Made by a program: the position numbers and the translations under genes. Below the pieces are notes generated by a model. It made no database searches. It saw nothing but the letters and a program-made list of their open reading frames with translations, and was not told where the DNA came from. From contig SUPR01000078.1 of NCBI GenBank assembly GCA_005191425.1, forward strand, positions 1-16,124: DNA of 16,124 bases, written 5' to 3'. How positions within the stretch are numbered: position 1 is the first letter of the stretch; every line of letters begins with the position of its first letter. The stretch is from Candidatus Helarchaeota ASGARD archaeon Hel_GB_B (GTDB lineage Archaea; Asgardarchaeota; Lokiarchaeia; Helarchaeales; HEL-GB-B). Below, one piece after another: positions 1,479 to 16,124 of the stretch.

Positions 1479-2933
1479 TTATTTTTGTTGAGGAATAAGT
1501 TTTTGAATATCTATCTTATTAGTCATTACTCGAGACTCTTTGTCGATAACTCTTACTAAATATTCTTGGTCATTTTCGATTCTAGGTATTTGAAACTCTA
1601 ATTCTTCAAAGGGATACCAAACAGAAATTTTATCATTATAGCTCGCTGTCTCAAAAAATTCACTTACATGAGAAATATTTACAATTACATCTTCCATACT
1701 TCTTCCAGAAACATTAGTAAGCGTTATTGAAATAATTTTATCATTATCGATCAGTTTCGGTTTTGACATCTTAACAGCTTTAAGTTTTGCAATTGTATCT
1801 TCAAGGACAACTTCTTTTTTAGGGGCAGTTTCGACCAATTTTTTCTCAGTAATACCTTCCTCTCCTACATACCTAATAACAAATGTCCGGCGCTTCTTTA
1901 AGGTATAAAGACTAACTTTCTTTAATTTAGCTAAGAAAAGAATTGCCTTCATTGACGGGCCTTTCTCATTAACTTCAATATAACCGTTTTTTACAGCTTC
2001 ATTAAATATCTCATTCCCAAGTCCAGTCCGAATTAATACACTAGACCATCCATCAGGAGACCCCACGCTTCCAATTGATATATCAGATTTTTCAGAAGTT
2101 AAATCAATACAATAATTACAAGAGCTTGATTTAGCTATGTCTAAATCATGGACAGGAAACTCGGATATTTTGCCGTCCTTCTCTATAAAAGTAAATTTCC
2201 CTTTTTGAATAGTCATTTTTTCAACATTATTGATATCGATTCCATGATTTGCCATAAAAAGCTTTAAACTTCTATAATCGAATGAATCCATACAAAATAG
2301 CCCTAATCGGATAATATTAGCCCGCATAAACAAATTTAAAAGACCAGTTGGACTTGTTGTCATTTTATAAACAGCATCAATATTACAAGGGGTTCCTACA
2401 AAAGCAATTGACGAGTCTCCGTTCTTTATTGCTGAAATTAATGCTATCAATGTCTGAGAATGACAATAAATTGATCCGGACGATTTTAATAACTCTTCTT
2501 TTGTGTGGACAATACTTGGAAGGGGTTTCCAATTTTCTTTTGGGTCTTTCATTGTTACTATTGCCGAATCTATAAAGCCTTTATCTAACAAGAATTCAAT
2601 TAATGCAGTAACTACTCCACCATCTTGTCCTTTTATGTCTGGATTGGTAGCTCTTGCACTATAAGAAGTAATATAATCCCCAATTAATGCACTTTCAAGG
2701 GTCAATGTTCGTGGACATTGGTTATAACATACTCCGCATCCAGTACACTTACCCACTAATTTTGGTTTCCCATCAACCCATTCTAGAACATCACATGTCG
2801 CTACACATGCACCGCAATGAGTGCAGATTCCAGTATTTACTATTTCTCTGATTAATTTGCCATAACTATCCTTTGTACCCTCTAATCTTTGTTGAGCCAA
2901 ACTGAAACTGCGCTTAACTTTTTCGACACTCAT
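1479..2933 (-). CDS. Coenzyme F420 hydrogenase/dehydrogenase beta-subunit (FrhB/FdhB) family protein with N-terminal 2x[4Fe-4S] domain and an extra ~140-aa C-terminal extension
   Basis: CTHCGACVATC and CTGCGVCYNQCP ferredoxin motifs; GQDGGVVTAL, FVGTPCNIDAV, GLFCMDSF and CNYCIDLTSEKSDISIGSVGSPDGWS FrhB motifs. ATG 2933 is preferred over GTG 2942 because GTGAG forms an SD-like motif just upstream. Confidence 0.92.
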   Translation of the reverse strand: MSVEKVKRSFSLAQQRLEGTKDSYGKLIREIVNTGICTHCGACVATCDVLEWVDGKPKLVGKCTGCGVCYNQCPRTLTLESALIGDYITSYSARATNPDIKGQDGGVVTALIEFLLDKGFIDSAIVTMKDPKENWKPLPSIVHTKEELLKSSGSIYCHSQTLIALISAIKNGDSSIAFVGTPCNIDAVYKMTTSPTGLLNLFMRANIIRLGLFCMDSFDYRSLKLFMANHGIDINNVEKMTIQKGKFTFIEKDGKISEFPVHDLDIAKSSSCNYCIDLTSEKSDISIGSVGSPDGWSSVLIRTGLGNEIFNEAVKNGYIEVNEKGPSMKAILFLAKLKKVSLYTLKKRRTFVIRYVGEEGITEKKLVETAPKKEVVLEDTIAKLKAVKMSKPKLIDNDKIISITLTNVSGRSMEDVIVNISHVSEFFETASYNDKISVWYPFEELEFQIPRIENDQEYLVRVIDKESRVMTNKIDIQKLIPQQK

Positions 2934-3182
2934 AGTTCTCACTAGATAAACATATTTTTAAAATCTAGAATTTAATTGATAATGAAGTTAGTCAAATATA
3001 TAAATTTAATTTATCAATTTTTTATTAAATAAAATTTGGATTGATCTCTGAATATCCCTTTAAAAAAAATATTATTTAAAAAAAGAATTTTTTGGATGAA
3101 TTTTGGAAATATTTTTATTTAAAAAATAATATTTTGATATTATTTAAAAATTAATTATTGCATTTTTTAATATTTTTTAGAT

Positions 3183-4319
3183 TCATGGCCATTTTAAATG
3201 CTCATAACTTTTTATAATGACTTTATCAAATCCTTCGAAAAGATTTTCTATCTCTTTATTTTTTACCATCTCCAAAAACTCTTCCATCGTAGTAATAGAC
3301 CCTTTTTTCGCCGCTAAATATGCCAATCTTGCCACAGCGACCGCTTCTCTTGCTTCTTCAGGTGTAAATTCGGGATCTTTATTATTTATGATACAATCAG
3401 CAAAATGAGCATCTTCATAACCAAATGAAATTAGATAATATTTAGGAAATGAAGAATGTTCTATCTCAGGTATATAAAATTCTCCCTTTTTTGGAGCCTC
3501 TTTATGAGTTGAAAAGATTTTGACTGGTGGGTTCCAATCATGATCTTCTAAAATAGTACCCATTGTACCTTGTATCTCAATCCTATTCGTAGGAGTATGA
3601 ATTGCCGATGTTGAAACGGATACTTCCGCTATGGCGCCTTTTTTATAATGTAAAAGCACTGATGCTGTATCTTCTCCTTTATTAGATGGAGACTCTATGG
3701 TTTTTATACACCAACTTTGTGCAGACTCTACTTTATCATTAAGAAGCCAATTTATTGTTGCAAATTTATGTACTCCTTGGTCAAATAATGCACCACCACC
3801 CCCTTTATCAAATGAAAACATCCAGTGATTAGGGTCACAAAATTTTGTCGGATCATCATATGCCCCCTCGTAAGACCTAATTAAGAATACATCTCCAATT
3901 AATCCTTTTTCAATTACACCTTTAATATATTTATGCGCAGGTAAGAACCTATGATTCTCTGCTACCATAAACTTTACTCCCGCCTTTTTTGTCGCATTTA
4001 TCATCTCATCACATTCTTTTAAAGTATTTGCCATTGGCTTTTCACAAATAATATGTTTACCTGCTTTCGCTGCTTCAATGACTAAATCCTTATGAAGATA
4101 ATGTGGCACATTTATATGGACTGCATCAATATCACTATTAAGAAACTTATCAAGATCAGTAAAACCTTCGACTTTGAGTCTTTTGGCAAATTTTTGGACG
4201 CTCTTTTCTACAATGTCATATGCAGCAACAAATTTTACATTCGAATGGTTTTTTGCACCATTTATATGAAATCTTGCTGCTTGCCCAGTCCCAATTATTC
4301 CAAATTTTATATAATCCAT
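3183..4319 (-). CDS. Gfo/Idh/MocA-family NAD(P)-dependent oxidoreductase
   Basis: FGIIGTG Rossmann motif, PHYLH, GKHIICEKPMA and GGGALFDQGVH. ATG 4319 is preferred over TTG 4331. Confidence 0.93.
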   Translation of the reverse strand: MDYIKFGIIGTGQAARFHINGAKNHSNVKFVAAYDIVEKSVQKFAKRLKVEGFTDLDKFLNSDIDAVHINVPHYLHKDLVIEAAKAGKHIICEKPMANTLKECDEMINATKKAGVKFMVAENHRFLPAHKYIKGVIEKGLIGDVFLIRSYEGAYDDPTKFCDPNHWMFSFDKGGGGALFDQGVHKFATINWLLNDKVESAQSWCIKTIESPSNKGEDTASVLLHYKKGAIAEVSVSTSAIHTPTNRIEIQGTMGTILEDHDWNPPVKIFSTHKEAPKKGEFYIPEIEHSSFPKYYLISFGYEDAHFADCIINNKDPEFTPEEAREAVAVARLAYLAAKKGSITTMEEFLEMVKNKEIENLFEGFDKVIIKSYEHLKWP

Positions 4320-4406
4320 TCTGATAACCAATCTTATTAAAGTATAAAATTTTTAATCAAATATATATATTTTTTATTTAAATTTTTAACTCTTTTATAT
4401 AACATA

Positions 4407-4922
4407 TTAAAAATAGACCATTATTATCGCCAATATCAATAATAATGAATCTAAAATTATCTCAAACAAAACTTTACTCTTTTTATTTATATTCCCTTTA
4501 ATTCCACTCATTAAATTAAGCATAGGCCGGTCAATAAAATTGTGGACATAAGGTTCATTATACCATTCAAGATGAAAAATCTTAAATTTTCTCAAAGCAC
4601 GAGCACCCCAATCTAAAATGTCAGGTATAATCGAAGCTATCATTCCTATCCAATATTGTATAAAAAAAATGATTACTACAATAGTTAAAATATATATCCC
4701 TAAATGATATGATACCCAAAAAATATCATGCCAATTGGCTTCAGGTGGGTGATATGTAAATTTAGCAGCAAGTGGGTCCAAAATTGCATGTGATAAAAAT
4801 CCAAATACAATAGTTATTATTATTAGCGCCCATATTGGAAATATTTTCAAATAATTAAAAACTAAATATTGAATAATTATTCCTACAATAAAATGAGTTG
4901 ATACTTGAATTGTAAAAATCAC
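4407..4922 (-). CDS. Membrane protein with metal-dependent-hydrolase-like His/Asp motifs (YdjM-like)
   Basis: Several hydrophobic helices plus STHFIVG, LSHAILD, SYHLG, IPDILD and VHNFID motifs. The start codon is ambiguous (GTG 4922 or ATT 4910). Confidence 0.65.
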   Translation of the reverse strand: MIFTIQVSTHFIVGIIIQYLVFNYLKIFPIWALIIITIVFGFLSHAILDPLAAKFTYHPPEANWHDIFWVSYHLGIYILTIVVIIFFIQYWIGMIASIIPDILDWGARALRKFKIFHLEWYNEPYVHNFIDRPMLNLMSGIKGNINKKSKVLFEIILDSLLLILAIIMVYF

Positions 4923-5009
4923 CTTTTATCTACAATTTTTGACTTGTTTTCTCTATTTAATTATAATATTTTTTATATTTATTTATTTCTTTTTATTCTT
5001 TTAATTATT

Positions 5010-5414
5010 TATCCGAGAGATTCAAAATATCTTCTAAATAGTATGTCAAATATCATATGGAAATTATGTGACGATATAGCGGACGGCTTTTATGCGGTAA
5101 TACTAAACGAAAGGAATTATTTGGACTGAAAACCATAAAACAACAACGCACCTCTTGTTATAAATATTAATACAAATCTTCAAGGTACCTGGAACTACAC
5201 AATTATTTATAATGATTCCACAATATTATGATGTGCCTTGAATATAGCATTTATAACTATTACACTATCAATTAATACCTTGCAGACAAACATTTCTATT
5301 GATGAGTTTGGATTTTATTATGTAATATTAATAATTAGTATCTTGGTAAGGATATACTATATAAAAAGGCAAAATTCGAAAAACTCTAAATTTTACTCCT
5401 TTTTCTATTTTTAG
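5010..5414 (+). pseudogene. Remnant of a cell-surface/secreted beta-rich repeat protein with C-terminal membrane anchor
   Basis: A single frame (3) reads YPRDSKYLLNSMSNIIWKLCDDIADGFYAVILNERNYLD*KP*NNNAPLVININTNLQGTWNYTIIYNDSTIL*CALNIAFITITLSINTLQTNISIDEFGFYYVILIISILVRIYYIKRQNSK... It is Asn/Thr-rich, has N-glycosylation sequons (NYT, NDS, NIS) and ends in a hydrophobic helix followed by a basic tail. Internal stops at 5127, 5136 and 5229. Confidence 0.65.
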
Positions 5415-5957
5415 AATCATTTTTTATTAATTTACTATAACCAATAACTGAATAATTATTCCAATTGGTCTAACCACTTATGAACTCTATTCAAAAATTG
5501 ATAAATCCATTTATATAAAATTGAGCAGAAATAATATAAAAAACTTTTATAACTATCGTTTTTGAAATATTTGGCATTTTGAGGAAACTTCTAAATTTCA
5601 TAATTAAATTTTGAATGATATTCCATTTTTAAATTTATAATATCTTTAAATATGCACTTTTAATCTATCTTTAAAATAAAAATTAATTATAAATAGTATA
5701 TGGTATCTAAAAATAAAGAATTAGAAAATATAAAATAGCAAAATGAAAAATTAATGAGAGTAATAAGTATAAATTTTTAAAAAAATGAAGAAAAAAGATT
5801 GAATTGATAATAACGAAAAGAGTAATGATAGATAAAAGACTTTTAATTTGGTCAGTCAATGTTTGAATAATTGATTATTGATTTATTTTTATACATTAAA
5901 TTATTTTTAAATAGTAGTTTATTCTTTTTATTTTTATTAAGATGTAGTGAATTTTAA

Positions 5958-7337
5958 ATGAATAAAAAGTATCTTTATACGATTATTATTTTCATTATAA
6001 TGGCTTCTTTGGACAATGCTGCCATTGCAATTTTGCCGGCTATTACGAGTTTAGTAGCATCAGAGTTAAAAATTAGCGATAATATAGTTTTGAATATAAT
6101 ATCTTTGATAACATTTATTATTGCTTTTACTAGTTTTTTTTGGGGTTATTGGGGAGATAAATATCCACGTAAAAAGTTGTTAATATATGGCTCTTTGCTG
6201 TGGGCTATAATGAATTTTCTAACTTATTTTTCAGTAAATGCGTATATGTTATTATTTTTCCAGGTTCTAACTGGAGTTGGTCTTGGCTGTATAGCATCAG
6301 TTGGTTTTTCAATTATAGTGGATTATATTTCTCCTAAGAAGAGGGGACTTGCTCTTTCTTTGTGGGGGCTTTCTCAAGCTGCTGGAACTATGGTTGGATA
6401 TTTTATTGCCATATTATATGCGCCAGATTTTGGATGGTCTTTTCCATTTCTTGTTATTTCGATAGTTACTTTTTTATTTATTGTCCTATATTTTTTTACT
6501 GAGGATCCAAAACGAGGAGGAACTGAAGAAGAATTGAAACGGTTATTTGAGGAAGGAAAACTATATGAATATAAAATAAAAAAATCAGATTTAAAAATGA
6601 TAATAACAAACAGATCAAATGTCTTTTTAATATTACAAGGAGCTTTTGCGCAAATTGGATGGGGAGCTATTGCGATTTTGCCCAGTGTTTTTGCATATAA
6701 AATCGCTGTTTATGGGTTTACAATAAAAGACGGTCTAAAAGTAGGTGGTATAATTGCGGCATTGTTTCAATTGGGGGGAGTTTTCTCGATATTATTCGGA
6801 TGGATAGGTGATAAATTGCAACAAAAAACCTATAAAGGAAGGTCCATAATTAGTGCAATAGGCTCATTTACGGGAATTCCGCTTTTTATTGTGATGCTTT
6901 TAATCCCATATAATTTTACCACAGTTTCTTTTACAAATCCAGTAATTTTTATATTTGAGCAACTTGCTACTAATCCATTATTTTTGACTGCATTTATATG
7001 TTCCTTTTTTGCTTCGATGATGATGTCAGCGGATTCACCGAATTTTTTTGCACTAGTAGGAGATGTCAATTTACCTGAACACCGAGGGACTTTATTTGGA
7101 CTATCCAACTTTACTAATGGTATTGGTAGAAGTTTGGGCACATTTATACTTTCTAGTTTTCAAATCCTACTAGTCCCATTTGTTGGATTTACAAATAGCT
7201 GGATTTATGCAATGGTATTTATCCAATTATTTTATATTGGGACGGGCATTTTTTATACCTTAACAGCATTAACTGCTCCAAAAAATATTAGAAATGTAAA
7301 GTCCATTCTCGCAGATAGAGCAAAAAGTAATTTTTGA
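5958..7337 (+). CDS. Major facilitator superfamily transporter
   Basis: About 12 TM segments; motif A WGYWGDKYPRKK, second-half FGWIGDKLQ, PKKRGLALS and PEHRGTLFG. GTGA SD-like motif at 5947-5950. Confidence 0.93.
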   Translation: MNKKYLYTIIIFIIMASLDNAAIAILPAITSLVASELKISDNIVLNIISLITFIIAFTSFFWGYWGDKYPRKKLLIYGSLLWAIMNFLTYFSVNAYMLLFFQVLTGVGLGCIASVGFSIIVDYISPKKRGLALSLWGLSQAAGTMVGYFIAILYAPDFGWSFPFLVISIVTFLFIVLYFFTEDPKRGGTEEELKRLFEEGKLYEYKIKKSDLKMIITNRSNVFLILQGAFAQIGWGAIAILPSVFAYKIAVYGFTIKDGLKVGGIIAALFQLGGVFSILFGWIGDKLQQKTYKGRSIISAIGSFTGIPLFIVMLLIPYNFTTVSFTNPVIFIFEQLATNPLFLTAFICSFFASMMMSADSPNFFALVGDVNLPEHRGTLFGLSNFTNGIGRSLGTFILSSFQILLVPFVGFTNSWIYAMVFIQLFYIGTGIFYTLTALTAPKNIRNVKSILADRAKSNF

Positions 7338-7520
7338 TCATTATTTTTTTAATTTAAATAGAAAAAAAACCTTCATTTACTATAAAAATTCCATACTAAA
7401 TGAAAAATTGAGTAAACATTTTTATTGATTTTAAATTCATGGTTAAGAATTAAATACACCAAGATTACATCAATGAATTAAAAAAAAATTAAAATTAAGA
7501 AATTACATCAACCGTTAATT

Positions 7521-7745
7521 TCAATCTTCAGAGTTTTTAGTTTTAACAATTGCAAACGCTACGATAATTAAAGAAGGTAAATTCAAACCTATTAAAAATA
7601 TCAGGTCTAAATATGTCAGAGGGATGTATAAGGGAGGGTCTTCGTAATATAATGGAGGTACAATCCCTGAAATTAATAATATTCCTGAAATTAAATTTAT
7701 CAGGAAAAAGCTCAAAAATCCAATAATAGGTATCCATTTTCTCAT
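7521..7745 (-). CDS. Small (74 aa) two-helix membrane protein of unknown function
   Basis: MRKWIPIIGFLSFFLINLISGILLISGIVPPLYYEDPPLYIPLTYLDLIFLIGLNLPSLIIVAFAIVKTKNSED. The SD GAGGT (7757-7753) overlaps the upstream stop codon and lies 7 nt before ATG 7745. Confidence 0.7.
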   Translation of the reverse strand: MRKWIPIIGFLSFFLINLISGILLISGIVPPLYYEDPPLYIPLTYLDLIFLIGLNLPSLIIVAFAIVKTKNSED

Positions 7746-7755
7746 TTTTATTACC

Positions 7756-8514
7756 TCAACTTGGCCAAGCCCACCAAGAAATGTCAATGCCATAAAACGG
7801 GAATAATGCTAAGGTTATACCAACTGTAATGAATTCAACTATGATTAAGACCGCATACATTAAGACATAAAACATTAGAATACTTTTCCATTGATTCCAA
7901 TTTCTTTTTTCGAGATATTTATCATGATACCAGTAAAATAGCCAATTAAAAGAGAAAATCAATAAAAACCAGCCAATAAAATTTGAAATTGGGACTTGAA
8001 GTATCCAGAAAGCCTGGTCTAAATCAGCCAACCAAATCCACTTATATTTTCTGATCATTATTGGGTCTATCATTAGGTCCATACTCATTCCAATAAATGC
8101 ACCGAGTAATGAAGAAATTACAAACCTTTTTGTTATTTTCTGAGTTATTTGGACAGATGTATAAGTAATAAGAAACCATGAGCAAGCCACAACTATAGGT
8201 ACTGCCATAAACCAGAGTATATAACCATGATAATTGAAATAATAAGTCATTGGGACTTCAATACCCATAAATGTTGTACCTTTTAAATCATAACCAGCTA
8301 ATATCATTTCATTCTCTTCTAAAGCGGCAAATAGAAATCCTCCTGAAAAGAATAGAATTATTTTTTTAATACCATATTTTTTATATCCATGATAAATTAC
8401 CATGAATGTCAATGCAAAAACAAGAACCTCATTTAAAATATTAGTAAAATTAATAGAATCTGAATATTTTATCAACCAGAAAAGTCGTTCCCAGAACAAT
8501 GGGTCATAGTCCAT
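7756..8514 (-). CDS. Carotenoid biosynthesis protein family (CruF-like membrane hydratase)
   Basis: Family pattern: E in TM2 (LEENE), VPIVVACSWFLITY, MDLMIDP, W-x-W and VPISNFIGWF. SD AGGAG upstream. Confidence 0.8.
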   Translation of the reverse strand: MDYDPLFWERLFWLIKYSDSINFTNILNEVLVFALTFMVIYHGYKKYGIKKIILFFSGGFLFAALEENEMILAGYDLKGTTFMGIEVPMTYYFNYHGYILWFMAVPIVVACSWFLITYTSVQITQKITKRFVISSLLGAFIGMSMDLMIDPIMIRKYKWIWLADLDQAFWILQVPISNFIGWFLLIFSFNWLFYWYHDKYLEKRNWNQWKSILMFYVLMYAVLIIVEFITVGITLALFPFYGIDISWWAWPS

Positions 8515-8987
8515 TTTGTCTATCTCCTATTATTTATTTAAATAAAAATTTGTTTAATAATAATCATTAATATATTTCGATTTTTAATTATTTGATTTAT
8601 TAAAATTTAGGTATAAGTCTTTATATTGAATTTGAATGGAAAATTTATTAGATTATTTCAATTTGAATTCATATTATTATTTTTTAAATTATTTTTTTAA
8701 ATTTAAAAAGATAAATCAATTCAATACATATCCCAGATCAGAATAAAATTTTAAATAAACTAAATAAAATGATTTTATTCTTAATTTTTAATTAGTTAAA
8801 ATATAAGACCTATTTTTTTCTCTTAAAATTGTATAAAAAATAATGTTACAAAATATTAATAATTATTTTCTTTTTAGGTACAATTATACAGTTCAAAATA
8901 TAAAAAATTAAAAGATTTAATTATTTAAATATTGAAAATTAAAACTTATTGGTCAGAATACCAATTAAAAATGATGAGTTGATTAAA

Positions 8988-10277
8988 ATGTCCAAATTTA
9001 AAGTTCAAGCAGTTAATGATGAGATCTTGGACGCATTAAAGTTGGAAAACCGCTATAAATGGCTTAATATGAACCTTCAGGCTATTTTAAACAAAAAGCA
9101 AATGGAGTTCTTAAAGGAAGTTGAAGATTTCGCTTTAAAAGTTGATAAAGAGAATAACTTTACTCATAGTATGGACGAAGATGTATATCAATATATGCCA
9201 ATATTTGGGAAGAAAGGGTATATTTCCAGAGGTCATAAATTTGATGAGATTGACATGGATTATGGAGATAAGTGGGGTTTAACATATGATATGTTACGAT
9301 GTCTTGCCGTTGATTTTTTTGATCCTCAATTTAATATGAGTATTGGTGCAACTACGTTATGTATTAATCCTATTGCGGAACACCACGATAATATTGATGT
9401 TAGATTAAAAGCTCTAAAAGAGTTAGTCACGGGGCAGGCAATTGGTTGTATATTAATTACTGAGCCTGAAAGAGGTTCTGATGCTACACATATGTTAACA
9501 ACTTGTGTAGAAAATGATGATGGGAGCTATTCTGTTTCTGGGACTAAGATTTTTAATACTAATGCTCCAAAATCGAAATATGCAGTTGGTTATGCGACCA
9601 CGATACAAAATGATTGGAAAGGTATGTGCCAATTTTTAATTGATACTTCGTGGGAGGGATGGAACTGTGAGAGAGCTAACATACCTTGGGTACCTAAATT
9701 ATGGATTGGAAAAGAAGAACTAAAAGATTTGCGAGTGCCAAAAGAATATGTTCTTGGCGGGCCAGGCAAAGGTAGGGATAATTTATTTGAAGGACTTCTT
9801 ACTGAACGCCTTGGAATTGCTTATGAAGACGTTGCACAATGCTGGGGTGCAATTGCTCATGCTGCAATCTATGCAAGTATGAGAAAACAATTTAAAAATC
9901 CAGTAATTAAATTTCAAGGAGTAGCTTTTACCTTGACAGACTATTGGGCAAAAACAGCCAATCTCTTCCAAGCAATTCTAAAATTTGCTGAAAATTATGA
10001 CGAAAAATATATAAAATATAAAGGAAATATCCCTAATGCAATTAGACAAAGTTTGGCTATCTCAGCTAGCCAGTTAAAATATAATGCATCTATATTAACA
10101 GAACGATGCTGTTATGAAATGGCAAATCTAATGGGGGGTGCAGGAGTCTGTGATAATACCTTAATACATGACCTTCTTGGTGTATCAAGAATTCAGGAAA
10201 TTGTAGGTGGTACTAGACAAATTCAACAATATATAATGACCAGTGGACTAATGCATTTATTTAAAGTCCTTCTTTAA
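8988..10277 (+). CDS. Acyl-CoA dehydrogenase family protein
   Basis: ITEPERGSDA, SGTKIFNTNA, LLTERLGIA, RKQFKNPVIKFQGV, MGGAG and EIVGGTRQIQ. ATG 8988 is preferred over TTG 8949. Confidence 0.93.
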   Translation: MSKFKVQAVNDEILDALKLENRYKWLNMNLQAILNKKQMEFLKEVEDFALKVDKENNFTHSMDEDVYQYMPIFGKKGYISRGHKFDEIDMDYGDKWGLTYDMLRCLAVDFFDPQFNMSIGATTLCINPIAEHHDNIDVRLKALKELVTGQAIGCILITEPERGSDATHMLTTCVENDDGSYSVSGTKIFNTNAPKSKYAVGYATTIQNDWKGMCQFLIDTSWEGWNCERANIPWVPKLWIGKEELKDLRVPKEYVLGGPGKGRDNLFEGLLTERLGIAYEDVAQCWGAIAHAAIYASMRKQFKNPVIKFQGVAFTLTDYWAKTANLFQAILKFAENYDEKYIKYKGNIPNAIRQSLAISASQLKYNASILTERCCYEMANLMGGAGVCDNTLIHDLLGVSRIQEIVGGTRQIQQYIMTSGLMHLFKVLL

Positions 10278-10322
10278 TTCTTAATTTTAACTTTATTTTC
10301 CCTTTTATTTTCTCTCTTTTCA
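10278..10322 (+). terminator. Pyrimidine/T-rich tract downstream of the acyl-CoA dehydrogenase
   Basis: ttcttaattttaactttattttcccttttattttctctcttttc immediately follows the TAA stop. Confidence 0.45.
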
Positions 10323-10636
10323 AGGTTGATAATTTTTAAATGTAATTGTTATTAAATTCTTGAATCTATTAAATGAAATGACTTTAAAAATATAGATTCT
10401 TATTTTCATGATTAATTATTACCTAAAAAATTTAACTTTGAACACATATTGAAAATAAAAATAAATAGGAAAAATTGAGTGAAAAATAGATAAAACGCTG
10501 TTATATATACACCATAATATCATTAAATCCTAATTTGTTAAAGTGATCAATAATTAAATCAAAAATTTAAAAATTATAAAAACTTTAAATATATTAGAAT
10601 TAAAAACAAAAATAAATAAGTAAGTGAATAATAAAA

Positions 10637-10888
10637 ATGGAAATAAATAACAGCTTAAGGGAAAAAATTCATAGACTGATCAATGAAATAGAAACTAGAA
10701 CAAAAAAATCCGAACAAATAAAGGAATTGAAATCTATCTTAGAGACAATAAAATCAGATCCTCAAAAATTCGAATCATTAAAGGATATTTACGAAGATGC
10801 AGAAGATGTTATTATGTTATATACAAGTTCAGGTCCTAAAGTTTGTGTTTATGATTCATTTATAAAAGGAGAATTAGATAATTCATAA
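10637..10888 (+). CDS. Hypothetical 83-aa protein
   Basis: Charged helical composition typical of real proteins; GTGA SD-like motif at 10624-10627. No family recognised. Confidence 0.65.
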   Translation: MEINNSLREKIHRLINEIETRTKKSEQIKELKSILETIKSDPQKFESLKDIYEDAEDVIMLYTSSGPKVCVYDSFIKGELDNS

Positions 10889-10931
10889 CAATATTATTAA
10901 ATTTTTCAATTAAGAATTAAAATTTATGAAT

Positions 10932-11390
10932 TTATTTGTCATTATTTATTGAATTTCGTAACATATTAAAAGTTGTTTTCTCTTTTTTACATTTTTCAAT
11001 TAAATCTGATACATTTTTTATAGAATTAATATCGTTTATTTCCGAAAAAAACTTTAAACTAGAATTGTAATTATCTAATGCCATATCAAATTTTTGAAAT
11101 TTTTGAAATAAAATCCCTTTATTCAGCAAGTAAGCAGCAATTCCAGGCTTAAAATTTATTTTTTTTACAATATTGATACCTTTTTCTAATATTTTTAAGG
11201 CAATTTCATCATTATTAAGAGATATATTCGCTAATGCTAGGCCAAGCAAGCTCGAAGCTTTTCCTAAATCATTGTTTTTATTATCAAAATAAGTTATTGC
11301 CTCATTAAATTTATTAATTGCAGATTTATAATTCTTTTTTCTTAATAATTCTATTCCTTCTTTCCATTTTTCATTACCATTCTCGCTCAT
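10932..11390 (-). CDS. Tetratricopeptide-repeat protein
   Basis: TPR-like helix pairs: YKSAINKFNEAI, GKASSLLGLALA...ALKILEKGI and GIAAYLLNKGILFQKFQKFDMALDNYNSSL. Confidence 0.85.
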   Translation of the reverse strand: MSENGNEKWKEGIELLRKKNYKSAINKFNEAITYFDNKNNDLGKASSLLGLALANISLNNDEIALKILEKGINIVKKINFKPGIAAYLLNKGILFQKFQKFDMALDNYNSSLKFFSEINDINSIKNVSDLIEKCKKEKTTFNMLRNSINNDK

Positions 11391-11760
11391 ATTTTCTCAT
11401 TTTTTTATTATATTTTTAATTATAAATGAATATTTTTGTATATAAATTGATTTATTATTAGTTTTATAATTTTGATCATAAAATAAAAATGTATGTTATA
11501 AACTGGTCAATATTGTTAGAAATTTTAAAGTTATGACCTTTTTTATTCAATCTTTTAATTTTTCAATATAAATTAATTGAATTTTATTAATAAATTTTAA
11601 AAATAGAAATTAATAAACCAATTAAATTGAGAGATGACGACAAATCTATTATTTTTTATAGAAAATTTGTTAATTTATTGAAAAAATACTAATTACACAA
11701 TTTTAATATTATGATTCAAATATTGTAAATTAATTTTCCTTTTTCATTTGATTATTTTAA

Positions 11761-13113
11761 ATGATCAAATTGGTGGTTTCATTGATTACAAAAATAAAAA
11801 AAGTATTAAAAGAACTAAAGGAGAGCATAAATTATAAGCTTCAAGGGCATCGAATAATTTTAATGTTTATATTGTCAGTAATTATAGGAATAATTAGTGG
11901 ATATGGATCTATTCTTTTTAGACTGATGATTTATTTAAATCAATTACTATTTAATTTGATTCCATTTTATTTTGGGAGTGTTTATATTATTCTAATGCCA
12001 GCAATAGGTGGTCTAATAGTAGGAATATTGACAAACAAATTCGGGAAAGAAACAAAAGGACATAGTGTACCAGAAATAATGGAAGCAATGTTATATAGAG
12101 ATGGAGTTATTAAAAAAAGGGTAGCACTATTAAAATTAATAGTATCTAGTGTTACGATCGGATCTGGAGGTTCTGCAGGTATAACAGGGCCGATTGCTCA
12201 AATTGGTGCTAGCTCTGGGTCGGCCATAGGTCAAATAATGAATTTAGACAAGAAAGATTTAAAATTATTAATAGCATGTGGAGTTTCTGCAGGAATTGCA
12301 GCCACCTTTAATGCCCCTTTTGGTGGTCTGCTATTTGGAATTGAAGTGATTTTGCGTCGATTAGAACTGGACATTAAAGTGTCATTGAATTTAACAATTT
12401 CTATTATTATTGCAACTCTAATTTCTATTGGATATTTAGGGAATCATCTTGCATTTGTTGTTCAATCAAATTATATTATGAATATTCCATTTGACTTTTT
12501 TATTTATCTAATTTTTGGTGTTATAATTGGACTATTTGGAGTAGGGTTTGTTAAATTTTTTTATGGTATAGAAAAAATATTTAATAAAATTAAAATTCCA
12601 AATTTTATTAAACCGTTAATTGGAGGAATCGGTGTTGGTCTAATTGCTCTTTTTTTCTCGCCACAAATTATGGGCGTTGGTTATGGGACAATTGAACAGA
12701 CATTAAAAGGTATGATACCATTATTTGTACTTCTTATGCTTTGTTTATTTAAGATCATTGTTACTTCTATTACACTCGGTAGTGGTGGTAGCGGTGGAAT
12801 ATTTGCACCATCACTCTTTATCGGGTCTACATTTGGTGGAACCTTGGGAATATTATTTTATTATTTATTTCCAACTCAGATATCTGACCCAATGGTATTT
12901 GCATTAGTTGGGATGGGAGCATTTTTTGCGGGTATAGCTAGAGCGCCATTAACCTGTATTTTAATGACTATTGAAATGACTTCGGATTATTTTCTAATAA
13001 TTCCACTTATGCTATCTTGTACTATAAGTTATTTAATCAATCAAATTATAATGAAAAAGAAGAGCATCTATACTATCAAAATCTTAAATAAGGGATATAA
13101 ATTAGATATTTAA
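11761..13113 (+). CDS. ClC-family anion channel/transporter without CBS domains and with atypical gate residues
   Basis: GHSVPE, GSGGSAGITGP, AGIAATFNAPFGGLLFGIEV, GSGGSGGIFAPSLFIG, ARAPLT and SIYT (Y445 equivalent). Confidence 0.95.
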   Translation: MIKLVVSLITKIKKVLKELKESINYKLQGHRIILMFILSVIIGIISGYGSILFRLMIYLNQLLFNLIPFYFGSVYIILMPAIGGLIVGILTNKFGKETKGHSVPEIMEAMLYRDGVIKKRVALLKLIVSSVTIGSGGSAGITGPIAQIGASSGSAIGQIMNLDKKDLKLLIACGVSAGIAATFNAPFGGLLFGIEVILRRLELDIKVSLNLTISIIIATLISIGYLGNHLAFVVQSNYIMNIPFDFFIYLIFGVIIGLFGVGFVKFFYGIEKIFNKIKIPNFIKPLIGGIGVGLIALFFSPQIMGVGYGTIEQTLKGMIPLFVLLMLCLFKIIVTSITLGSGGSGGIFAPSLFIGSTFGGTLGILFYYLFPTQISDPMVFALVGMGAFFAGIARAPLTCILMTIEMTSDYFLIIPLMLSCTISYLINQIIMKKKSIYTIKILNKGYKLDI

Positions 13114-13145
13114 TTGCCTCTCAATCTTCATAAAATATTATTTTT

Positions 13146-13796
13146 TTATAAAAAGAATTTTGAAATACTTTCTTTTAATGTCTTTTTATGTAATAAAATT
13201 ATTTTATCATTTTCTTGAACAACTATATTACTTTCAGGTAAAACAACTTTATTTTCTCTAACAATTACAAGAATATGAGTACCTTTTGGAAACGATATTT
13301 CATTTATATGCTTGTGGAAATATTTTGAATCTTTTGATATTTTAATACTTATTACATCAGCAAAACTAATGATTTTATTAATTACTTCAACTAATTCTAA
13401 TCCTCGTAAATATGCCATAAGATATTGAGCTGTAATTAGAGCTGGATCAATGATTTCAGTTAGTCCTAATTTTTTACATGATTCTATATAAATTGGATCC
13501 CTAACTCTGACAAGAATTCGCTTCACATTGTAAATTTTAGCTAAACATCCAATTAAAATATTAGTAGATTGGTTTTCAGTAACTGCTATTACAACATCTG
13601 CAGACTTTATACCTGCAGATTCTAAAACTTGAGGGTCTTTTGCATCGCCACATATTATATGAGATGAGAGACCTTCAGATAGCTGGGCACAAGTTTTCTC
13701 ATCTTTTTCAACCATATATACATAAATATCGTGCTTCATTAAAATCCTAGAAATTTCATAACCTGTTTGACCGCCGCCAATTACAAGTACTTTCAT
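13146..13796 (-). CDS. trkA: TrkA/KtrA-type RCK protein (one TrkA-N plus one TrkA-C domain)
   Basis: MKVLVIGGGQTG, GDAKDPQVLESAGIKSADVVIAVT, ARVR-like VRVRDP, and C-terminal ILVIVRENKVVLPESNIVVQENDKI. ATG 13796 follows AAGGATGG. Confidence 0.88.
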   Translation of the reverse strand: MKVLVIGGGQTGYEISRILMKHDIYVYMVEKDEKTCAQLSEGLSSHIICGDAKDPQVLESAGIKSADVVIAVTENQSTNILIGCLAKIYNVKRILVRVRDPIYIESCKKLGLTEIIDPALITAQYLMAYLRGLELVEVINKIISFADVISIKISKDSKYFHKHINEISFPKGTHILVIVRENKVVLPESNIVVQENDKIILLHKKTLKESISKFFL

Positions 13797-14030
13797 TATA
13801 AATTCCATCCTTAATTATAAATTTGAATAATCATTACCTATCTAAGAAAAAAAATTGTTTATAATTAAAATAATTAATTGATTTGTTATTTTAAAAGGTA
13901 TATTTAAAATTTTTGAGAAATTTGTTTCTCAATTTTAAATTCTGACCATAATTATAATTTAAAATCTCTAAAATAATTTAAATTTGATAATCTATTTAAT
14001 TTTAAAAAATTTCAATGATAATTCATCCAC

Positions 14031-14474
14031 TTAATTCAATATTGATTCTAGCCTATCGGATGGCTTTTTTGACAAATCACCAATTATTTTATCAATTATA
14101 TTTTTAAATTCGTTATATATAGAAACATTACCTGAAAAATCATTTAAATTATTATATTTTTCGAGAAATATCTTTAAAATATTGTCTAAAATTTTTGTTA
14201 TCATTTTTTCATCTAATTTTGTGCTTCCTATACAAAAAATACAGATATTACTATCAATTAAATTAGGTTCTAAACAGTTTAATATGATTATTTTATATTT
14301 TTTCATTTTAAATATTTCAATTTCATTTGGTGTAGTTTCCCCTATAAAAGAATTAATTACACTTAAGAATGCTCCTCTTAAATCAATATCAATTTTAATT
14401 TCTTTTTCATCATGATAAGACCTATTAAATACAATTAGGCCATTTTTCATTATTCCAATTTCAATAACGACCAT
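14031..14474 (-). CDS. Longin-like domain protein (Asgard eukaryotic-signature type)
   Basis: Beta-beta-alpha-beta-beta-beta-alpha-alpha pattern with GLIVFNRSY, DIDLRGAFLSVINSF, FKMKKYKII, ILDNILKIFLEKY and GNVSIYNEFKNIIDKII. SD AGAGGG upstream. Confidence 0.72.
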   Translation of the reverse strand: MVVIEIGIMKNGLIVFNRSYHDEKEIKIDIDLRGAFLSVINSFIGETTPNEIEIFKMKKYKIIILNCLEPNLIDSNICIFCIGSTKLDEKMITKILDNILKIFLEKYNNLNDFSGNVSIYNEFKNIIDKIIGDLSKKPSDRLESILN

Positions 14475-14529
14475 ATTAGCCCTCTAATATAATAGATAAA
14501 TCTAATTTATTTTAAAATATTAATATATA

Positions 14530-15690
14530 CTAAAGAGAAATGGGATAATTTCCAAATTCTTTTGCAGCTTCTACCATCCATTTTATATTTTCTATTTTTA
14601 CTGAATTTATCATATTGCTTGCTGATAGAATAAATCCGCCAACAGGAGCAGCTGTTTTAATTGCATACCTAACTTCTTTATAGACATCCTCTTTTGTCCC
14701 ATGAGTAAGTACAGCTCCAACATCAATATTTCCTAAAAGGCACAATTTATCCCCGACCTTTTTCTTAACATAATTTAAATCTACATTAGCTGTTGGTTCA
14801 AGGCTATGAAGTCCATCAAAACCCGATTCAACAATATAATCTAATAAAGGCATTATATTTCCATCAGTATGTAAAATAATTTTACCACCTCTTGAATGTA
14901 CCGCTTCAGTTAATCGCTGATAGCATGGGACCAATAACTCATGAAAAATTTTGGGGCTCATCATTGGACCAGTTTTAAAAGCTAAATCCTCGGATTCAAC
15001 AAAAACTTTAGCACCTGCATCCATATATGACATATAACAACTAATAGTAAAGTCAGTTATGGTCTTAAAGACATCTTTAGCTAAAGGTCGATTGCCATAC
15101 AATTGTTTTACAAAAAATTCCATTCCAAATCCCTGCCAAGCAGATTCCCAAATCCCTTGAATATCATTAATAACAAAAACTATGGTCTGTTCTTTAAATT
15201 TTCTATTAATTTTTCTATAAAAGCGTTTAGCCATTTTTGAATATTTAGTAGCATAAATTTCCTGGATGTTTTTCTTATATTCGTACCATTTCTCAACTGA
15301 ATCAATAAGTCCACGTTTATAAAACGGATAAATATTTCCTTCATTATCTAATGCTTCAATTAATCTTCCAAAAATATCGACCATTTTATGATCATCTATG
15401 AATTTTAGAGTTAAAAAGCCAACTTGTACAAAATCGATACCCAATTTTAGAACTGCTTTTACCATACGCGTAAAAATGTCAGTTTCCATGTCTTCAACTA
15501 CATTGTTTAATTGATTTAACCAATCATTCGGAAAATCTATCTTTAACTGCTCTATTACTTCAAAATCAGATTTTGGGGGAGGCCCTAATATTTTATCTAT
15601 ATTGTTTGCATCTAAATATATTAAATGAGTTGGGACTCTATCTACATCTTCTAAATTTAATGCAGCCCATATTCTCTCAATATTATTCAT
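14530..15690 (-). CDS. Uroporphyrinogen decarboxylase (URO-D)/MtaA-CmuA superfamily protein
   Basis: MNNIERIWAAL...DRVP N-terminus, EDLAFKTGPMMSPKIF, ILHTDGNI, GFDGLHSLEP, LLGNID and APVGGFILSASN. The HemE RQAGR motif is absent. Confidence 0.9.
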   Translation of the reverse strand: MNNIERIWAALNLEDVDRVPTHLIYLDANNIDKILGPPPKSDFEVIEQLKIDFPNDWLNQLNNVVEDMETDIFTRMVKAVLKLGIDFVQVGFLTLKFIDDHKMVDIFGRLIEALDNEGNIYPFYKRGLIDSVEKWYEYKKNIQEIYATKYSKMAKRFYRKINRKFKEQTIVFVINDIQGIWESAWQGFGMEFFVKQLYGNRPLAKDVFKTITDFTISCYMSYMDAGAKVFVESEDLAFKTGPMMSPKIFHELLVPCYQRLTEAVHSRGGKIILHTDGNIMPLLDYIVESGFDGLHSLEPTANVDLNYVKKKVGDKLCLLGNIDVGAVLTHGTKEDVYKEVRYAIKTAAPVGGFILSASNMINSVKIENIKWMVEAAKEFGNYPISL

Positions 15691-16124
15691 TATAATTTTC
15701 CAATTATCATTTTTTAAATTTAAGTTAAAATAAATATTATAAATATTCCATTTTTAAATTTTTAAGAATTCATTTTCTACAATAGGAATTAGAAAAATGA
15801 GAAAATAAAGAATTGATAAAACATGACCTTTTAATCAAATTTATTTATTTATTTATAATTCCTAATCAATTAATAGAAAATTTTATAAATTTAAAGAAAT
15901 TGGGGTTAATTTTAACTTCATTAACAGGAATTCTTTTTTATTTTCTAAATTAAAGAGTTTCTAATTTACTAATTCAGTTAAATAAAATAAAAAAAGCAAA
16001 AGTATCAAATTACAGTAAAAAATAAATGAAAATTAAATAAATATTTTTATTATTTTTGTTAAATTGAATTATAATGAAGTATCAATAATCAATTTTGATT
16101 AAATTACTATTAATTTTGTTGATT

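What the first reader, a model, noticed from the sequence alone, without database searches (positions are those of the whole stretch)
12058..12348. Intact ClC homolog lacking both proton-coupling glutamates
The ClC gate motif G(R/K)EGP reads GITGP (GGT ATA ACA GGG CCG, 12178-12192). Glu to Thr needs two base changes, so it is not a single error. The internal proton-transfer site (E203 of ClC-ec1, FIIEE) reads FGIEV (GTG 12346-12348), the Val found in eukaryotic ClC channels. The GSGIP filter reads GHSVP, while GIFAP and the central Tyr (SIY) are retained. Gate-Glu mutants of ClC-ec1 lose H+ coupling, and ClC-K channels naturally lack this Glu. The prediction is an ungated, uncoupled passive anion channel or one with altered selectivity, which is unusual for a prokaryotic ClC and relevant to the origin of eukaryotic ClC channels if the host is Asgard.
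Basis: partly seen in the sequence, partly recalled or inferred. Interest (0 to 1): 0.75.

Follow-up and report, generated by a model that had tools for sequence, protein, structure and literature searches.

The report
Strain-private ClC allele without gating glutamate
One strain of an Asgard (Helarchaeales) archaeon carries an intact chloride-transporter (ClC) gene whose proton-coupling "gating" glutamate was recently replaced by threonine; sister strains 99% identical in DNA still have the glutamate, so this is a young private allele that either leaks anions passively or is decaying, not an ancient channel lineage.

Summary
The 450-aa ClC gene (11761-13113, +) reads GHSVP / GITGP / FGIEV / GGIFAP / SIY at the stated coordinates, and alignment to ClC-ec1 puts Thr142 at Glu_ex and Val196 at Glu_in.

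Two of the three "odd" features are ordinary. In 190 relatives the Glu_in column is never Glu (V/I/L), and the Ser_cen column is His in 187.

The loss of Glu_ex is private to this strain. Contigs 99.1% identical in DNA from four other samples, and four NCBI Helarchaeota MAGs, encode GHGVP / GREGP / xPAF. The window branch carries 10 non-synonymous and 7 synonymous changes against 1:11 on the sister branches (p=0.008). Four changes hit columns at least 95% conserved: G102S, R141I, E142T and P230L.

Glu_ex-less prokaryotic ClCs are not rare in kind. About 60 GTDB species carry V/A/I there, some as conserved clades, and this scan has reported such groups before on other DNA. One archaeal lineage (GIVGP) shares R-to-I and P230-to-L and is under purifying selection (pN/pS 0.21).

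Best reading: H+ coupling through Glu_ex is gone, leaving a passive anion pathway (about 0.5) or an allele in early decay (about 0.38). Nothing links it to the origin of eukaryotic ClC channels.

The parts
11761..13113 (+). ClC gene, 450 aa, transmembrane domain only (no CBS pair); the only ClC in the genome
   Evidence: The AF2 model has pLDDT 93.4 and TM-score 0.84-0.86 to ClC-ec1. The Asgard relatives are 587-596 aa with CBS domains.
12058..12072 (+). GHSVP, equivalent to GSGIP. His101 at the Ser_cen position is clade-wide. Ser102 is private (G102S, A at 12064) and is the first residue of helix D in the model.
   Evidence: Among the relatives the column is G in 120 of 121.
12178..12192 (+). 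GITGP, equivalent to GREGP. Ile141 and Thr142 (the Glu_ex position, first residue of helix F) are private to this strain. Sister alleles read AGA GAA.
   Evidence: The Glu_ex column is E 185, V 3, T 2 (the two T rows are the window and its duplicate) in 190 sequences.
12343..12348 (+). Glu195-Val196, equivalent to E202-E203 of ClC-ec1. The superfamily-invariant Glu is kept. Glu_in is Val, as in the whole clade.
   Evidence: PMC3519907 covers the conservation of E202 and the presence of Val in channels.
12382..12384 (+). Ser208 (L208S, private): a polar residue in a hydrophobic column of helix I
12448..12450 (+). Leu230 (P230L, private, C to T at 12449): the conserved Pro of the LGxxPAF motif, at the start of the extracellular I-J linker. 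The same column is Leu in the independent GIVGP lineage.
12685..12687 (+). Gly309 (E309G, private). The column is E in 88 of 121 and G in 10.
12793..12810 (+). GGIFAP, equivalent to GxFxP and retained (V347I is a common variant). Phe348 corresponds to Phe_cen and starts helix N.
13069..13071 (+). Tyr437, equivalent to the central Tyr (Y445 of ClC-ec1), retained
11391..11760 (.). Intergenic region upstream of the ClC gene. Against the sister strain it has 6 SNPs and a 15-base deletion at 11398.
13146..13808 (-). Convergent TrkA_N/TrkA_C (RCK) gene. Neither a ClC nor this protein was found in the same-genus genome G004, and its syntenic site is too short to hold them.

Best explanation
This is a real, recently derived allele, private to one strain, of the single ClC gene of a Helarchaeales (Asgard) archaeon. 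The species' normal allele is a CBS-less member of a large archaeal/bacterial ClC clade with the motifs GHGVPE, GREGP, GIEV, GGxFAP and Tyr. In this strain a three-base cluster changed Arg141-Glu142 to Ile-Thr, and G102S, L208S, P230L, T155A, Y282F, E309G and V347I were added within about 2-3% synonymous divergence. The protein still has the full ClC fold, the invariant E202-equivalent Glu, GGIFAP and the central Tyr. It has no protonatable side chain at the outer gate, so the only known mechanism of H+ coupling and gating cannot work. If the protein is made, it should act as an H+-uncoupled, constitutively ungated passive anion pathway (slow uniport or leak), like ClC-ec1 E148A/Q. Shown: the allele, that it is derived, that it is private, and the gene-specific burst of replacements. 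Inferred: the loss of coupling (by analogy), and that the protein still conducts and is tolerated or useful. The last point rests on the independent GIVGP lineage, which has the same accompanying changes and is under purifying selection.
For: Identity and fold.

Derived and private:
- L002-L005 are 98.6-99.1% identical in DNA over up to 14.3 kb and encode GHGVP/GREGP/HPAF/GYETIE.
- Four NCBI Helarchaeota MAGs carry the same canonical protein.
- Run X2, and a further variant seen in contig fragments of X5, also read AGA GAA.
- All Asgard relatives at 58-66% identity have GREGP.

Real haplotype: X3 contigs are identical to the window and show no alternative allele, and L006 differs by 1 base in 7332.

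Branch asymmetry: the window branch has 10 non-synonymous and 7 synonymous changes against 1 and 11 on the other branches, Fisher p=0.008. The effect is gene-specific. Outside the ClC and URO-D-like genes, the window has 1 derived amino-acid change against 3 for L002.

Viability of the Glu_ex-less state:
- About 60 species representatives have V/A/I at Glu_ex.
- Conserved clades include Nitrospinaceae (8 species, 59-94% identity), Sediminispirochaeta (7) and Nitrospirales (12).
- The archaeal GIVGP pair P0027/P0019 shares R141I and P230L and has pN/pS 0.21 (25 synonymous, 16 non-synonymous).
- Three of the window's four private hits on conserved columns fall in the same columns as that lineage's hits.

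Mechanism: a non-protonatable Glu_ex abolishes H+ transport while Cl- transport persists (PMC3519907). ClC-K channels naturally lack the gating Glu and are largely open (PMC5362633).
Against: - No function was measured. Thr at Glu_ex was found in no other ClC: there was none among the genome-collection hits (whose residues there were mostly V, A or I), and a metagenome scan gave only a collagen-like false positive.
- G102S hits a Gly that is invariant in 120 of 121 relatives and is kept in nearly all Glu_ex-less ClCs. L208S puts Ser into a hydrophobic helix column. Neither belongs to the usual Glu_ex-less pattern, and both look like damage.
- The dN/dS ratio of about 0.4 on this branch cannot be told apart from neutrality with 17 changes.
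- The ClC gene is dispensable in this group. The same-genus genome G004 (93% complete) and two other genomes of the order have none.
- The Glu_ex/P230 association did not reach significance in the independent-pairs test (median p 0.125).
- X3, L006 and the window may all come from one sample.
Confidence: 0.5

Rival explanations
1. Early pseudogenisation. Constraint on the ClC was lifted in this strain, and the replacements at invariant pore positions are unselected damage. The open frame is intact only because too little time has passed, and the protein is non-functional or badly impaired.
For:
- Four of about nine derived replacements hit columns at least 95% conserved, roughly the share expected with no constraint at all.
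- G102S and L208S are not part of any Glu_ex-less pattern.
- The ClC is absent from the same-genus genome and from others in the order.
- The CBS pair had already been lost in this species.
- The URO-D-like gene, two genes downstream, also shows a burst of derived replacements in this strain, 8 against 3.
- With 17-25 substitutions, the absence of a stop codon is uninformative.
Against: - The replacements coincide in column with those of a selectively maintained Glu_ex-less lineage: R-to-I and P230-to-L in P0027/P0019, pN/pS 0.21.
- Loss of Glu_ex does not abolish anion transport in any ClC tested (PMC3519907, PMC5362633).
- The allele is the only one assembled in run X3, so the strain is established there.
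- dN/dS on the branch is about 0.4 rather than 1.
- There is no frameshift or stop, and AF2 gives a confident ClC fold. AF2 is, however, insensitive to point changes.
Confidence: 0.38
2. One reading: an Asgard ClC lineage that is natively channel-like, lacking both glutamates, and bears on the origin of eukaryotic ClC channels.
For: The host is an Asgard archaeon. Val at Glu_in is shared with all eukaryotic ClC channels (PMC3519907).
Against: - The Glu_ex loss is confined to one strain, while alleles 99.1% identical in DNA and all other Asgard ClCs keep GREGP.
- Val, Ile or Leu at Glu_in is general in this prokaryotic clade, in bacteria and archaea alike.
- The protein is much closer to bacterial ClCs (E 1e-48 to 1e-42) than to any eukaryotic ClC (1e-14 or weaker).
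Confidence: 0.02
3. Sequencing or assembly artefact, or a chimeric consensus of a low-coverage MAG.
For: Depth in the only run that holds the haplotype is about 4x. X3 contigs do not cover 12365-12667, which includes P230L, L208S and Y282F. The window, L006 and X3 may share reads.
Against: Three assemblies give the same letters. Logan contigs are identical over the stretches that hold G102S, R141I/E142T, T155A, E309G and V347I, and L006 matches throughout. All 25 differences in the gene, synonymous third-position changes included, are reproduced letter for letter in a second assembly (L006), which random read errors would not give.
Confidence: 0.03
4. A functional transporter with changed substrate or coupling, for example another anion, or H+ coupling by a non-canonical route using His101 or Thr142.
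For: Both filter motifs were changed (G102S, E142T). The clade already departs from ClC-ec1, with His at Ser_cen and no Glu_in, and no member of it that I know of has been characterised. A few CLC antiporters work without a dissociable Glu_in (PMC3519907).
Against: No ClC is known to couple H+ without a carboxylate at Glu_ex. The changes are too recent and too private to show selection for a new specificity.
Confidence: 0.07

Closest known systems
Sister allele P0002 / P0122 (Candidatus Helarchaeota MAG proteins, e.g. MHA1312111.1)
   Same: Same species-level population: 99.1% DNA identity over 14.3 kb, the same synteny, the same 450-aa CBS-less architecture and 97% protein identity.
   Different: It reads GHGVP, GREGP, T155, L208, P230, Y282, E309 and V347. 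All of these match the family consensus, and the window allele is derived at each.
ClC-ec1 (E. coli ClcA) and its E148A/E148Q uncoupled mutants (PDB 1OTS, 1OTT, 1OTU)
   Same: Same fold (TM-score 0.84-0.86, rmsd about 2.5 A), the same GxFxP, central Tyr and E202. Like the E148 mutants, it has no protonatable gate residue, which in ClC-ec1 gives H+-uncoupled Cl- transport (PMC3519907).
   Different: About 27% identity. The change is natural, not engineered, and is Thr rather than Ala or Gln. It has His at Ser_cen, Ser at the following Gly and Val at Glu_in. Nothing was measured here.
Vertebrate ClC-K channels (GKVGP; PDB 5TQQ, 11AH)
   Same: They naturally lack the gating Glu and have Val at Glu_in, and they are largely open anion channels (PMC5362633).
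   Different: They belong to the eukaryotic branch (E about 1e-5 to this protein), have CBS domains and need barttin. Their Glu-less state is fixed across a gene family, not private to a strain.
Archaeal GIVGP ClC lineage (P0027 / P0019, Thermoprotei MAG)
   Same: Same close clade (47% identity). It has the same three columns changed, R141-to-I, Glu_ex lost and P230-to-L, and is under purifying selection with pN/pS 0.21.
   Different: It has Val rather than Thr at the gate, keeps G102 and the CBS pair, and is separated from its nearest Glu-bearing relative by about 32% divergence, so it is older.
Conserved bacterial Glu_ex-less ClC clades (Nitrospinaceae GRVGPT, Sediminispirochaeta GRAGPV, Nitrospirales GN[VI]GPC)
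   Same: Prokaryotic ClC homologues with a non-protonatable residue at Glu_ex, no Glu at Glu_in and E202 retained.
   Different: In them the state is conserved across many species (49-95% identity within clades), whereas here it sits in a single strain. Their gate residues are V, A or I, never T. They are 34-45% identical to Glu-bearing ClCs of the window's clade.

Membership tests
CLC superfamily (Pfam PF00654 Voltage_CLC) | Profile match above the curated cut-off over the whole transmembrane domain | tested here: met
   322 bits against a cut-off of 24.8, covering profile positions 1-345 of 346. PDB phmmer gives E=5.8e-48 to Sll0855 and about 1e-42 to ClC-ec1.
CLC superfamily (Pfam PF00654 Voltage_CLC) | ClC fold, with helix N-termini (D, F, N) pointing at the anion site | tested here: met
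   The AF2 model has pLDDT 93.4 and pTM 0.90. Helices start at residues 102, 142 and 348. Foldseek gives TM-score 0.84-0.86 to ClC-ec1.
CLC superfamily (Pfam PF00654 Voltage_CLC) | Anion-site motifs GxGxPE and GxFxP, the central Tyr and the invariant E202 | tested here: inconclusive
   GGIFAP, Tyr437 and Glu195 are present. The first motif reads GHSVPE, with Ser replacing a Gly found in 120 of 121 relatives.
CLC superfamily (Pfam PF00654 Voltage_CLC) | Homodimer | not tested
   No complex prediction was run.
CLC 2Cl-/1H+ exchangers (ClC-ec1 type) | Protonatable Glu (or Asp) at Glu_ex | tested here: not met
   Thr142 (ACA, 12184-12186) aligns with E148.
CLC 2Cl-/1H+ exchangers (ClC-ec1 type) | Glu at Glu_in (E203); a few exchangers are known exceptions | tested here: not met
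   Val196. The column is never Glu in 190 relatives. The exceptions are noted in PMC3519907.
CLC 2Cl-/1H+ exchangers (ClC-ec1 type) | Measured coupled Cl-/H+ exchange | not testable with these tools
   This needs liposome flux assays.
Glu_ex-less CLC channels (ClC-K-like) | Non-protonatable residue at Glu_ex and Val at Glu_in | tested here: met
   Thr142 and Val196.
Glu_ex-less CLC channels (ClC-K-like) | Glu-less state conserved among orthologues, i.e. a maintained trait | tested here: not met
   Alleles 99.1% identical in DNA and all Asgard relatives have GREGP.
Glu_ex-less CLC channels (ClC-K-like) | Membership of the eukaryotic channel branch | tested here: not met
   E is about 1e-5 to ClC-K and 1e-6 to ClC-2, against 1e-48 to a cyanobacterial ClC. 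No tree including eukaryotes was built.
Glu_ex-less CLC channels (ClC-K-like) | Passive, H+-independent anion conductance | not testable with these tools
   Inferred only by analogy (PMC3519907, PMC5362633).

The most novel reading that the evidence does not exclude
The allele is a snapshot of an exchanger-type ClC being converted into a passive, ungated anion channel in a wild Asgard population. On this reading a single multi-base mutation removed Arg-Glu at the gate, and P230L (and perhaps G102S) followed as compensatory changes. This would repeat the route taken independently by the GIVGP archaeal lineage. The two natural alleles, 13 residues apart, would then define a minimal mutational path from coupled or gated transport to channel-like transport.
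Probability: 0.3. Interest if true: 0.55.

Novelty: new member of a known kind. Interest (0 to 1): 0.3.

Why it matters
As an annotation matter the result is modest: the gene is a ClC and should not be called a Cl-/H+ exchanger in this strain. It does not inform the origin of eukaryotic ClC channels.

Two things have some value. First, the canonical and Glu-less alleles differ at only 13 residues and occur in samples of the same sediment study. They form a ready-made pair for testing what loss of Glu_ex does in the uncharacterised GHGVPE/GREGP/GIEV clade, and whether P230L compensates for it.

Second, the census run to put the allele in context shows that prokaryotic ClCs without a gating glutamate recur, at least 9 state changes on the tree. 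They include clades conserved across many species in Nitrospinaceae, Nitrospirales and Sediminispirochaeta. No paper on these turned up in four literature searches. They are better candidates for native prokaryotic ClC "channels" than this allele.

Tried and rejected
- Expression: no RNA holder was listed for the gene, so nothing can be said about expression.
- Thr at Glu_ex in JGI metagenome contigs: a degenerate 45-base pattern scan returned only a collagen-like repeat protein, a false positive. Records close to the window's genome may have been left out.
- Templated origin of ATAACA: there is no second copy of GGTATAACAGG in the window.
- Glu_ex/P230 coupling: the independent-pairs test gave 7 pairs, about 4 in the same direction and 0 opposite, median p 0.125, so it is under-powered. 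Distant bacterial clades may lack the motif for other reasons.
- Genome-wide relaxed selection in this strain: rejected for this window. Outside the ClC and URO-D-like genes, derived amino-acid changes are 1 (window) against 3 (L002). The window does carry A/T where L002 has G/C at 67 sites against 31 the other way.
- Import of a divergent allele by recombination: not supported. The ClC pS of 0.036 is like that of its upstream neighbours, 0.034-0.048.
- Literature: four searches found no paper on natural prokaryotic Glu_ex-less ClCs or on E148T. The library lacks most subscription journals.
- Distance between P230 and the gate: not measured, because the structure tool returns no coordinates.
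- Not used: complex prediction and the search of protein representatives.
Full report
**What is there.**
The window holds one ClC gene, 11761-13113 on the + strand. It encodes 450 aa with no internal stop. It matches Pfam Voltage_CLC at E=5.5e-96 over the whole profile and is the only ClC in the 3.54-Mb, 182-contig genome. An AlphaFold2 model built on a 70-sequence alignment is confident (pLDDT 93.4, pTM 0.90). It superposes on ClC-ec1 structures with TM-score 0.84-0.86 and rmsd about 2.5 A.

HMMER alignments to Synechocystis Sll0855 and ClC-ec1 fix the register:
- GHSVP (12058-12072) corresponds to GSGIP.
- GITGP (12178-12192) corresponds to GREGP.
- GIEV corresponds to IIEE.
- GGIFAP and the SIY tyrosine are retained.

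Thr142 therefore sits at Glu_ex (E148), Val196 at Glu_in (E203) and Glu195 at the invariant E202. In the model Ser102, Thr142 and Phe348 are the first residues of helices D, F and N, as expected for residues lining the anion site.

**Which features are ordinary.**
I aligned 190 relatives returned by two searches of the 5.8-billion-protein collection. The Glu_in column is V in 115, I in 71 and L in 4, and never Glu. The Ser_cen column is His in 187. This clade holds archaeal and bacterial ClCs, most of them with a C-terminal CBS pair. Its consensus is GHGVPE / GREGP / G(I/M)E(V/I) / GGxFAP / IYT. So "no internal glutamate" and "GH.VP" do not mark this gene out. The literature also notes that a few CLC antiporters lack a dissociable Glu_in, so Val there does not identify a channel (PMC3519907). 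The Glu_ex column is E in 185, V in 3 and T in 2; the two T rows are the window protein and its alternative-start duplicate.

**The loss of the gating glutamate is private to one strain.**
- The nearest relative, P0002, is 97% identical, also 450 aa and also lacks CBS domains. It reads GHGVP, GREGP, HPAF, GYETIE and GGVFAP.
- It is encoded on contigs from four other metagenome samples (L002-L005). These are collinear with the window and 98.6-99.1% identical in DNA over up to 14.3 kb.
- Four NCBI "Candidatus Helarchaeota" MAGs carry the same canonical protein.
- Contigs of public runs laid on the gene show three things. Run X2 carries the P0002 haplotype. Some contig fragments of X5 match the P0002 haplotype, and others carry a further variant that also reads AGA GAA. 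Run X3 carries contigs identical to the window, with no alternative allele assembled. X3 and X5 come from the same sediment study.
- A separately deposited MAG contig (L006, GCA_054387055.1) differs from the window by 1 base in 7332.
- All Asgard relatives at 58-66% identity have GREGP.

The GITGP allele is therefore real and derived, and it is confined to one strain lineage. AGAGAA became ATAACA, three changes within four bases.

**Rate and pattern of change.**
Against L002 the gene has 25 differences, 11 synonymous and 14 non-synonymous. Its pN of 0.0134 is 3.6 times the pooled value for the other twelve genes, and its pN/pS is 0.38 against 0.26. I polarised the changes with the X5 fragments. 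The window branch has 10 non-synonymous and 7 synonymous changes. The other two branches together have 1 and 11 (Fisher p=0.008). The derived replacements are G102S, R141I, E142T, T155A, L208S, P230L, Y282F, E309G and V347I. Four of them (102, 141, 142, 230) fall in the 102 columns that are at least 95% conserved, and P0002 has none of these.

The acceleration is gene-specific. With the same-genus genome G004 as outgroup, the other genes show 1 window-derived change against 3 L002-derived changes. Only the URO-D-like gene at 14530-15690 shows a similar burst, 8 against 3. The pS of the ClC gene resembles that of its upstream neighbours, so nothing suggests an imported divergent allele.

**Is a Glu-less ClC unusual in prokaryotes?**
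It is rare, but not exceptional. I ran a degenerate DNA pattern for G[ST]GGSxGx-[second codon base not A]-GPxxQI over one genome per GTDB species. It returned 73 loci, of which about 60 are genuine ClC genes with V, A or I (rarely S, W or G) at Glu_ex. Some form clades conserved across many species:

| Clade | Motif | Species | Pairwise identity |
|---|---|---|---|
| Nitrospinaceae | GRVGPT | 8 | 59-94% |
| Sediminispirochaeta | GRAGPV | 7 | 71-94% |
| Nitrospirales | GN[VI]GPC | 12 | 49-95% |
| Anaerolineae | GRVGPI | 3 | 63-68% |
| Methanofastidiosum | GRAGPI | 2 | 88% |
| Streptomyces | GCVGPI | 2 | 92% |

All of them keep the E202-equivalent Glu. On a tree of 243 sequences the Glu_ex state changes at least 9 times. 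Earlier reports of this scan describe further maintained Glu_ex-less groups on other DNA. Four literature searches found no paper on such natural prokaryotic variants. Thr at this position was seen nowhere else.

**A clue that the changes are not random.**
Within the close clade, two other lineages lack Glu_ex. P0152 reads GKVGP. The pair P0027/P0019 reads GIVGP. That pair also has Ile at the Arg column and Leu at the P230 column, the same columns changed in the window. The two GIVGP genes differ at 41 bases with pN/pS 0.21 and mostly conservative replacements, so this type of protein is selectively maintained.

P230 is lost in 6 of 183 Glu-bearing rows but in 35 of 60 Glu-less rows. The strict independent-pairs test has only 7 pairs, about 4 in the same direction and none opposite, with median p 0.125. 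Distant clades may lack the motif for other reasons. P230 lies at the start of the extracellular I-J linker: helix I spans 205-226 and the loop 227-244. I could not measure its distance to the gate, so the association remains unexplained.

**Weighing the explanations.**
Any transport by this protein cannot use the canonical H+ route. In ClC-ec1, replacing Glu_ex with a non-protonatable residue abolishes H+ transport while uncoupled Cl- movement persists (PMC3519907). ClC-K channels, which naturally lack this Glu, are largely open (PMC5362633). What remains open is whether the allele is kept by selection or is decaying.

For a working passive pathway:
- the overlap with a maintained Glu-less lineage;
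- the intact frame;
- the retained GGIFAP, Tyr and E202;
- an established strain in run X3.

For decay:
- G102S and L208S, which belong to no Glu-less pattern;
- a share of hits on conserved columns close to the neutral expectation;
- an earlier loss of the CBS pair;
- no ClC in the same-genus genome G004 (93% complete) or in two other genomes of the order;
- in G004 the flanking genes lie next to each other with no ClC or TrkA gene between them.

I put the passive-pathway reading at about 0.5, decay at about 0.38, altered coupling or substrate at about 0.07, artefact at about 0.03, and the deep channel-lineage reading at about 0.02.

**Relation to eukaryotic ClC channels.**
There is none that I can see. 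The trait is strain-private, other Asgard ClCs keep the Glu, and the protein is far closer to bacterial ClCs (E 1e-48 to 1e-42) than to any eukaryotic one (1e-14 or weaker).

**Verdict.**
The gene is a new member of a known kind, a natural Glu_ex-less ClC, and interest is low to moderate.

Noticed in passing
L022, L038, L046, L058, L063, L071, L072, L087 (Nitrospinaceae); L041, L048, L056, L059, L060, L074, L075 (Sediminispirochaeta); L023-L025, L033, L040, L043, L062, L067, L073, L079, L083, L086 (Nitrospirales): Whole bacterial clades of ClC homologues have Val, Ala or Ile at the gating-glutamate position and no Glu at Glu_in. The state is conserved across species at 49-95% identity. The Nitrospirales proteins are short (about 450 aa) and also read GQGVER and GGI[VI]LP in the filter motifs. 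They are candidate native prokaryotic ClC channels, and no paper on them turned up in the library.
   Followed up: partly
window 14530-15690 (-): The URO-D-family gene (Pfam E=1.3e-29) has 13 non-synonymous and 3 synonymous differences from the sister strain (pN/pS about 1.1). Polarised with G004, 8 replacements are derived in the window strain, including C87F and G350V, against 3 in the sister. It is the second gene in this strain with a private burst of protein change.
   Followed up: partly
window 11761-13808; G004:C41 (L012, L013, L094, L096): The same-genus genome G004 keeps the flanking genes in order (carotenoid-synthase-like, acyl-CoA dehydrogenase, TPR, URO-D). It has only about 870 bp where the window has the ClC, TrkA-like and ORF147 genes. 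Neither a ClC nor the TrkA-like protein was found anywhere in G004, so ClC and TrkA appear to be gained or lost together.
   Followed up: partly
window 13111-13145 and the alignment: This species' ClC ends right after helix R (KGYKLDI*). Its Loki/Helarchaeota relatives continue into a CBS pair and are 587-596 aa. Some relatives (P0094, P0100, P0118, P0121) carry a fused TrkA_C domain, and here a stand-alone TrkA_N/TrkA_C gene lies convergent, 32 bp downstream.
   Followed up: no
P0027/P0019 (L102:3001-4803, L104:1462-2934) and P0152: Two further independent Glu_ex-less lineages lie inside the close archaeal clade. One reads GIVGP, with P230L and F232L, and has pN/pS 0.21 between two strains. 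The other reads GKVGP, the same motif as ClC-K.
   Followed up: partly
window 1776-16124 against L002: At the differing sites the window has A/T where the sister strain has G/C 67 times, and the reverse 31 times (p=0.0004). Divergence is very uneven along the contig: 2 differences in 1776-5000 against 25 in the 1.35-kb ClC gene. There is also a 15-base indel at 11398.
   Followed up: partly
window 238-903 (+): This ORF matches only the C-terminal third of Pfam CdhD (profile positions 271-386 of 387, E=2e-20).
   Followed up: no
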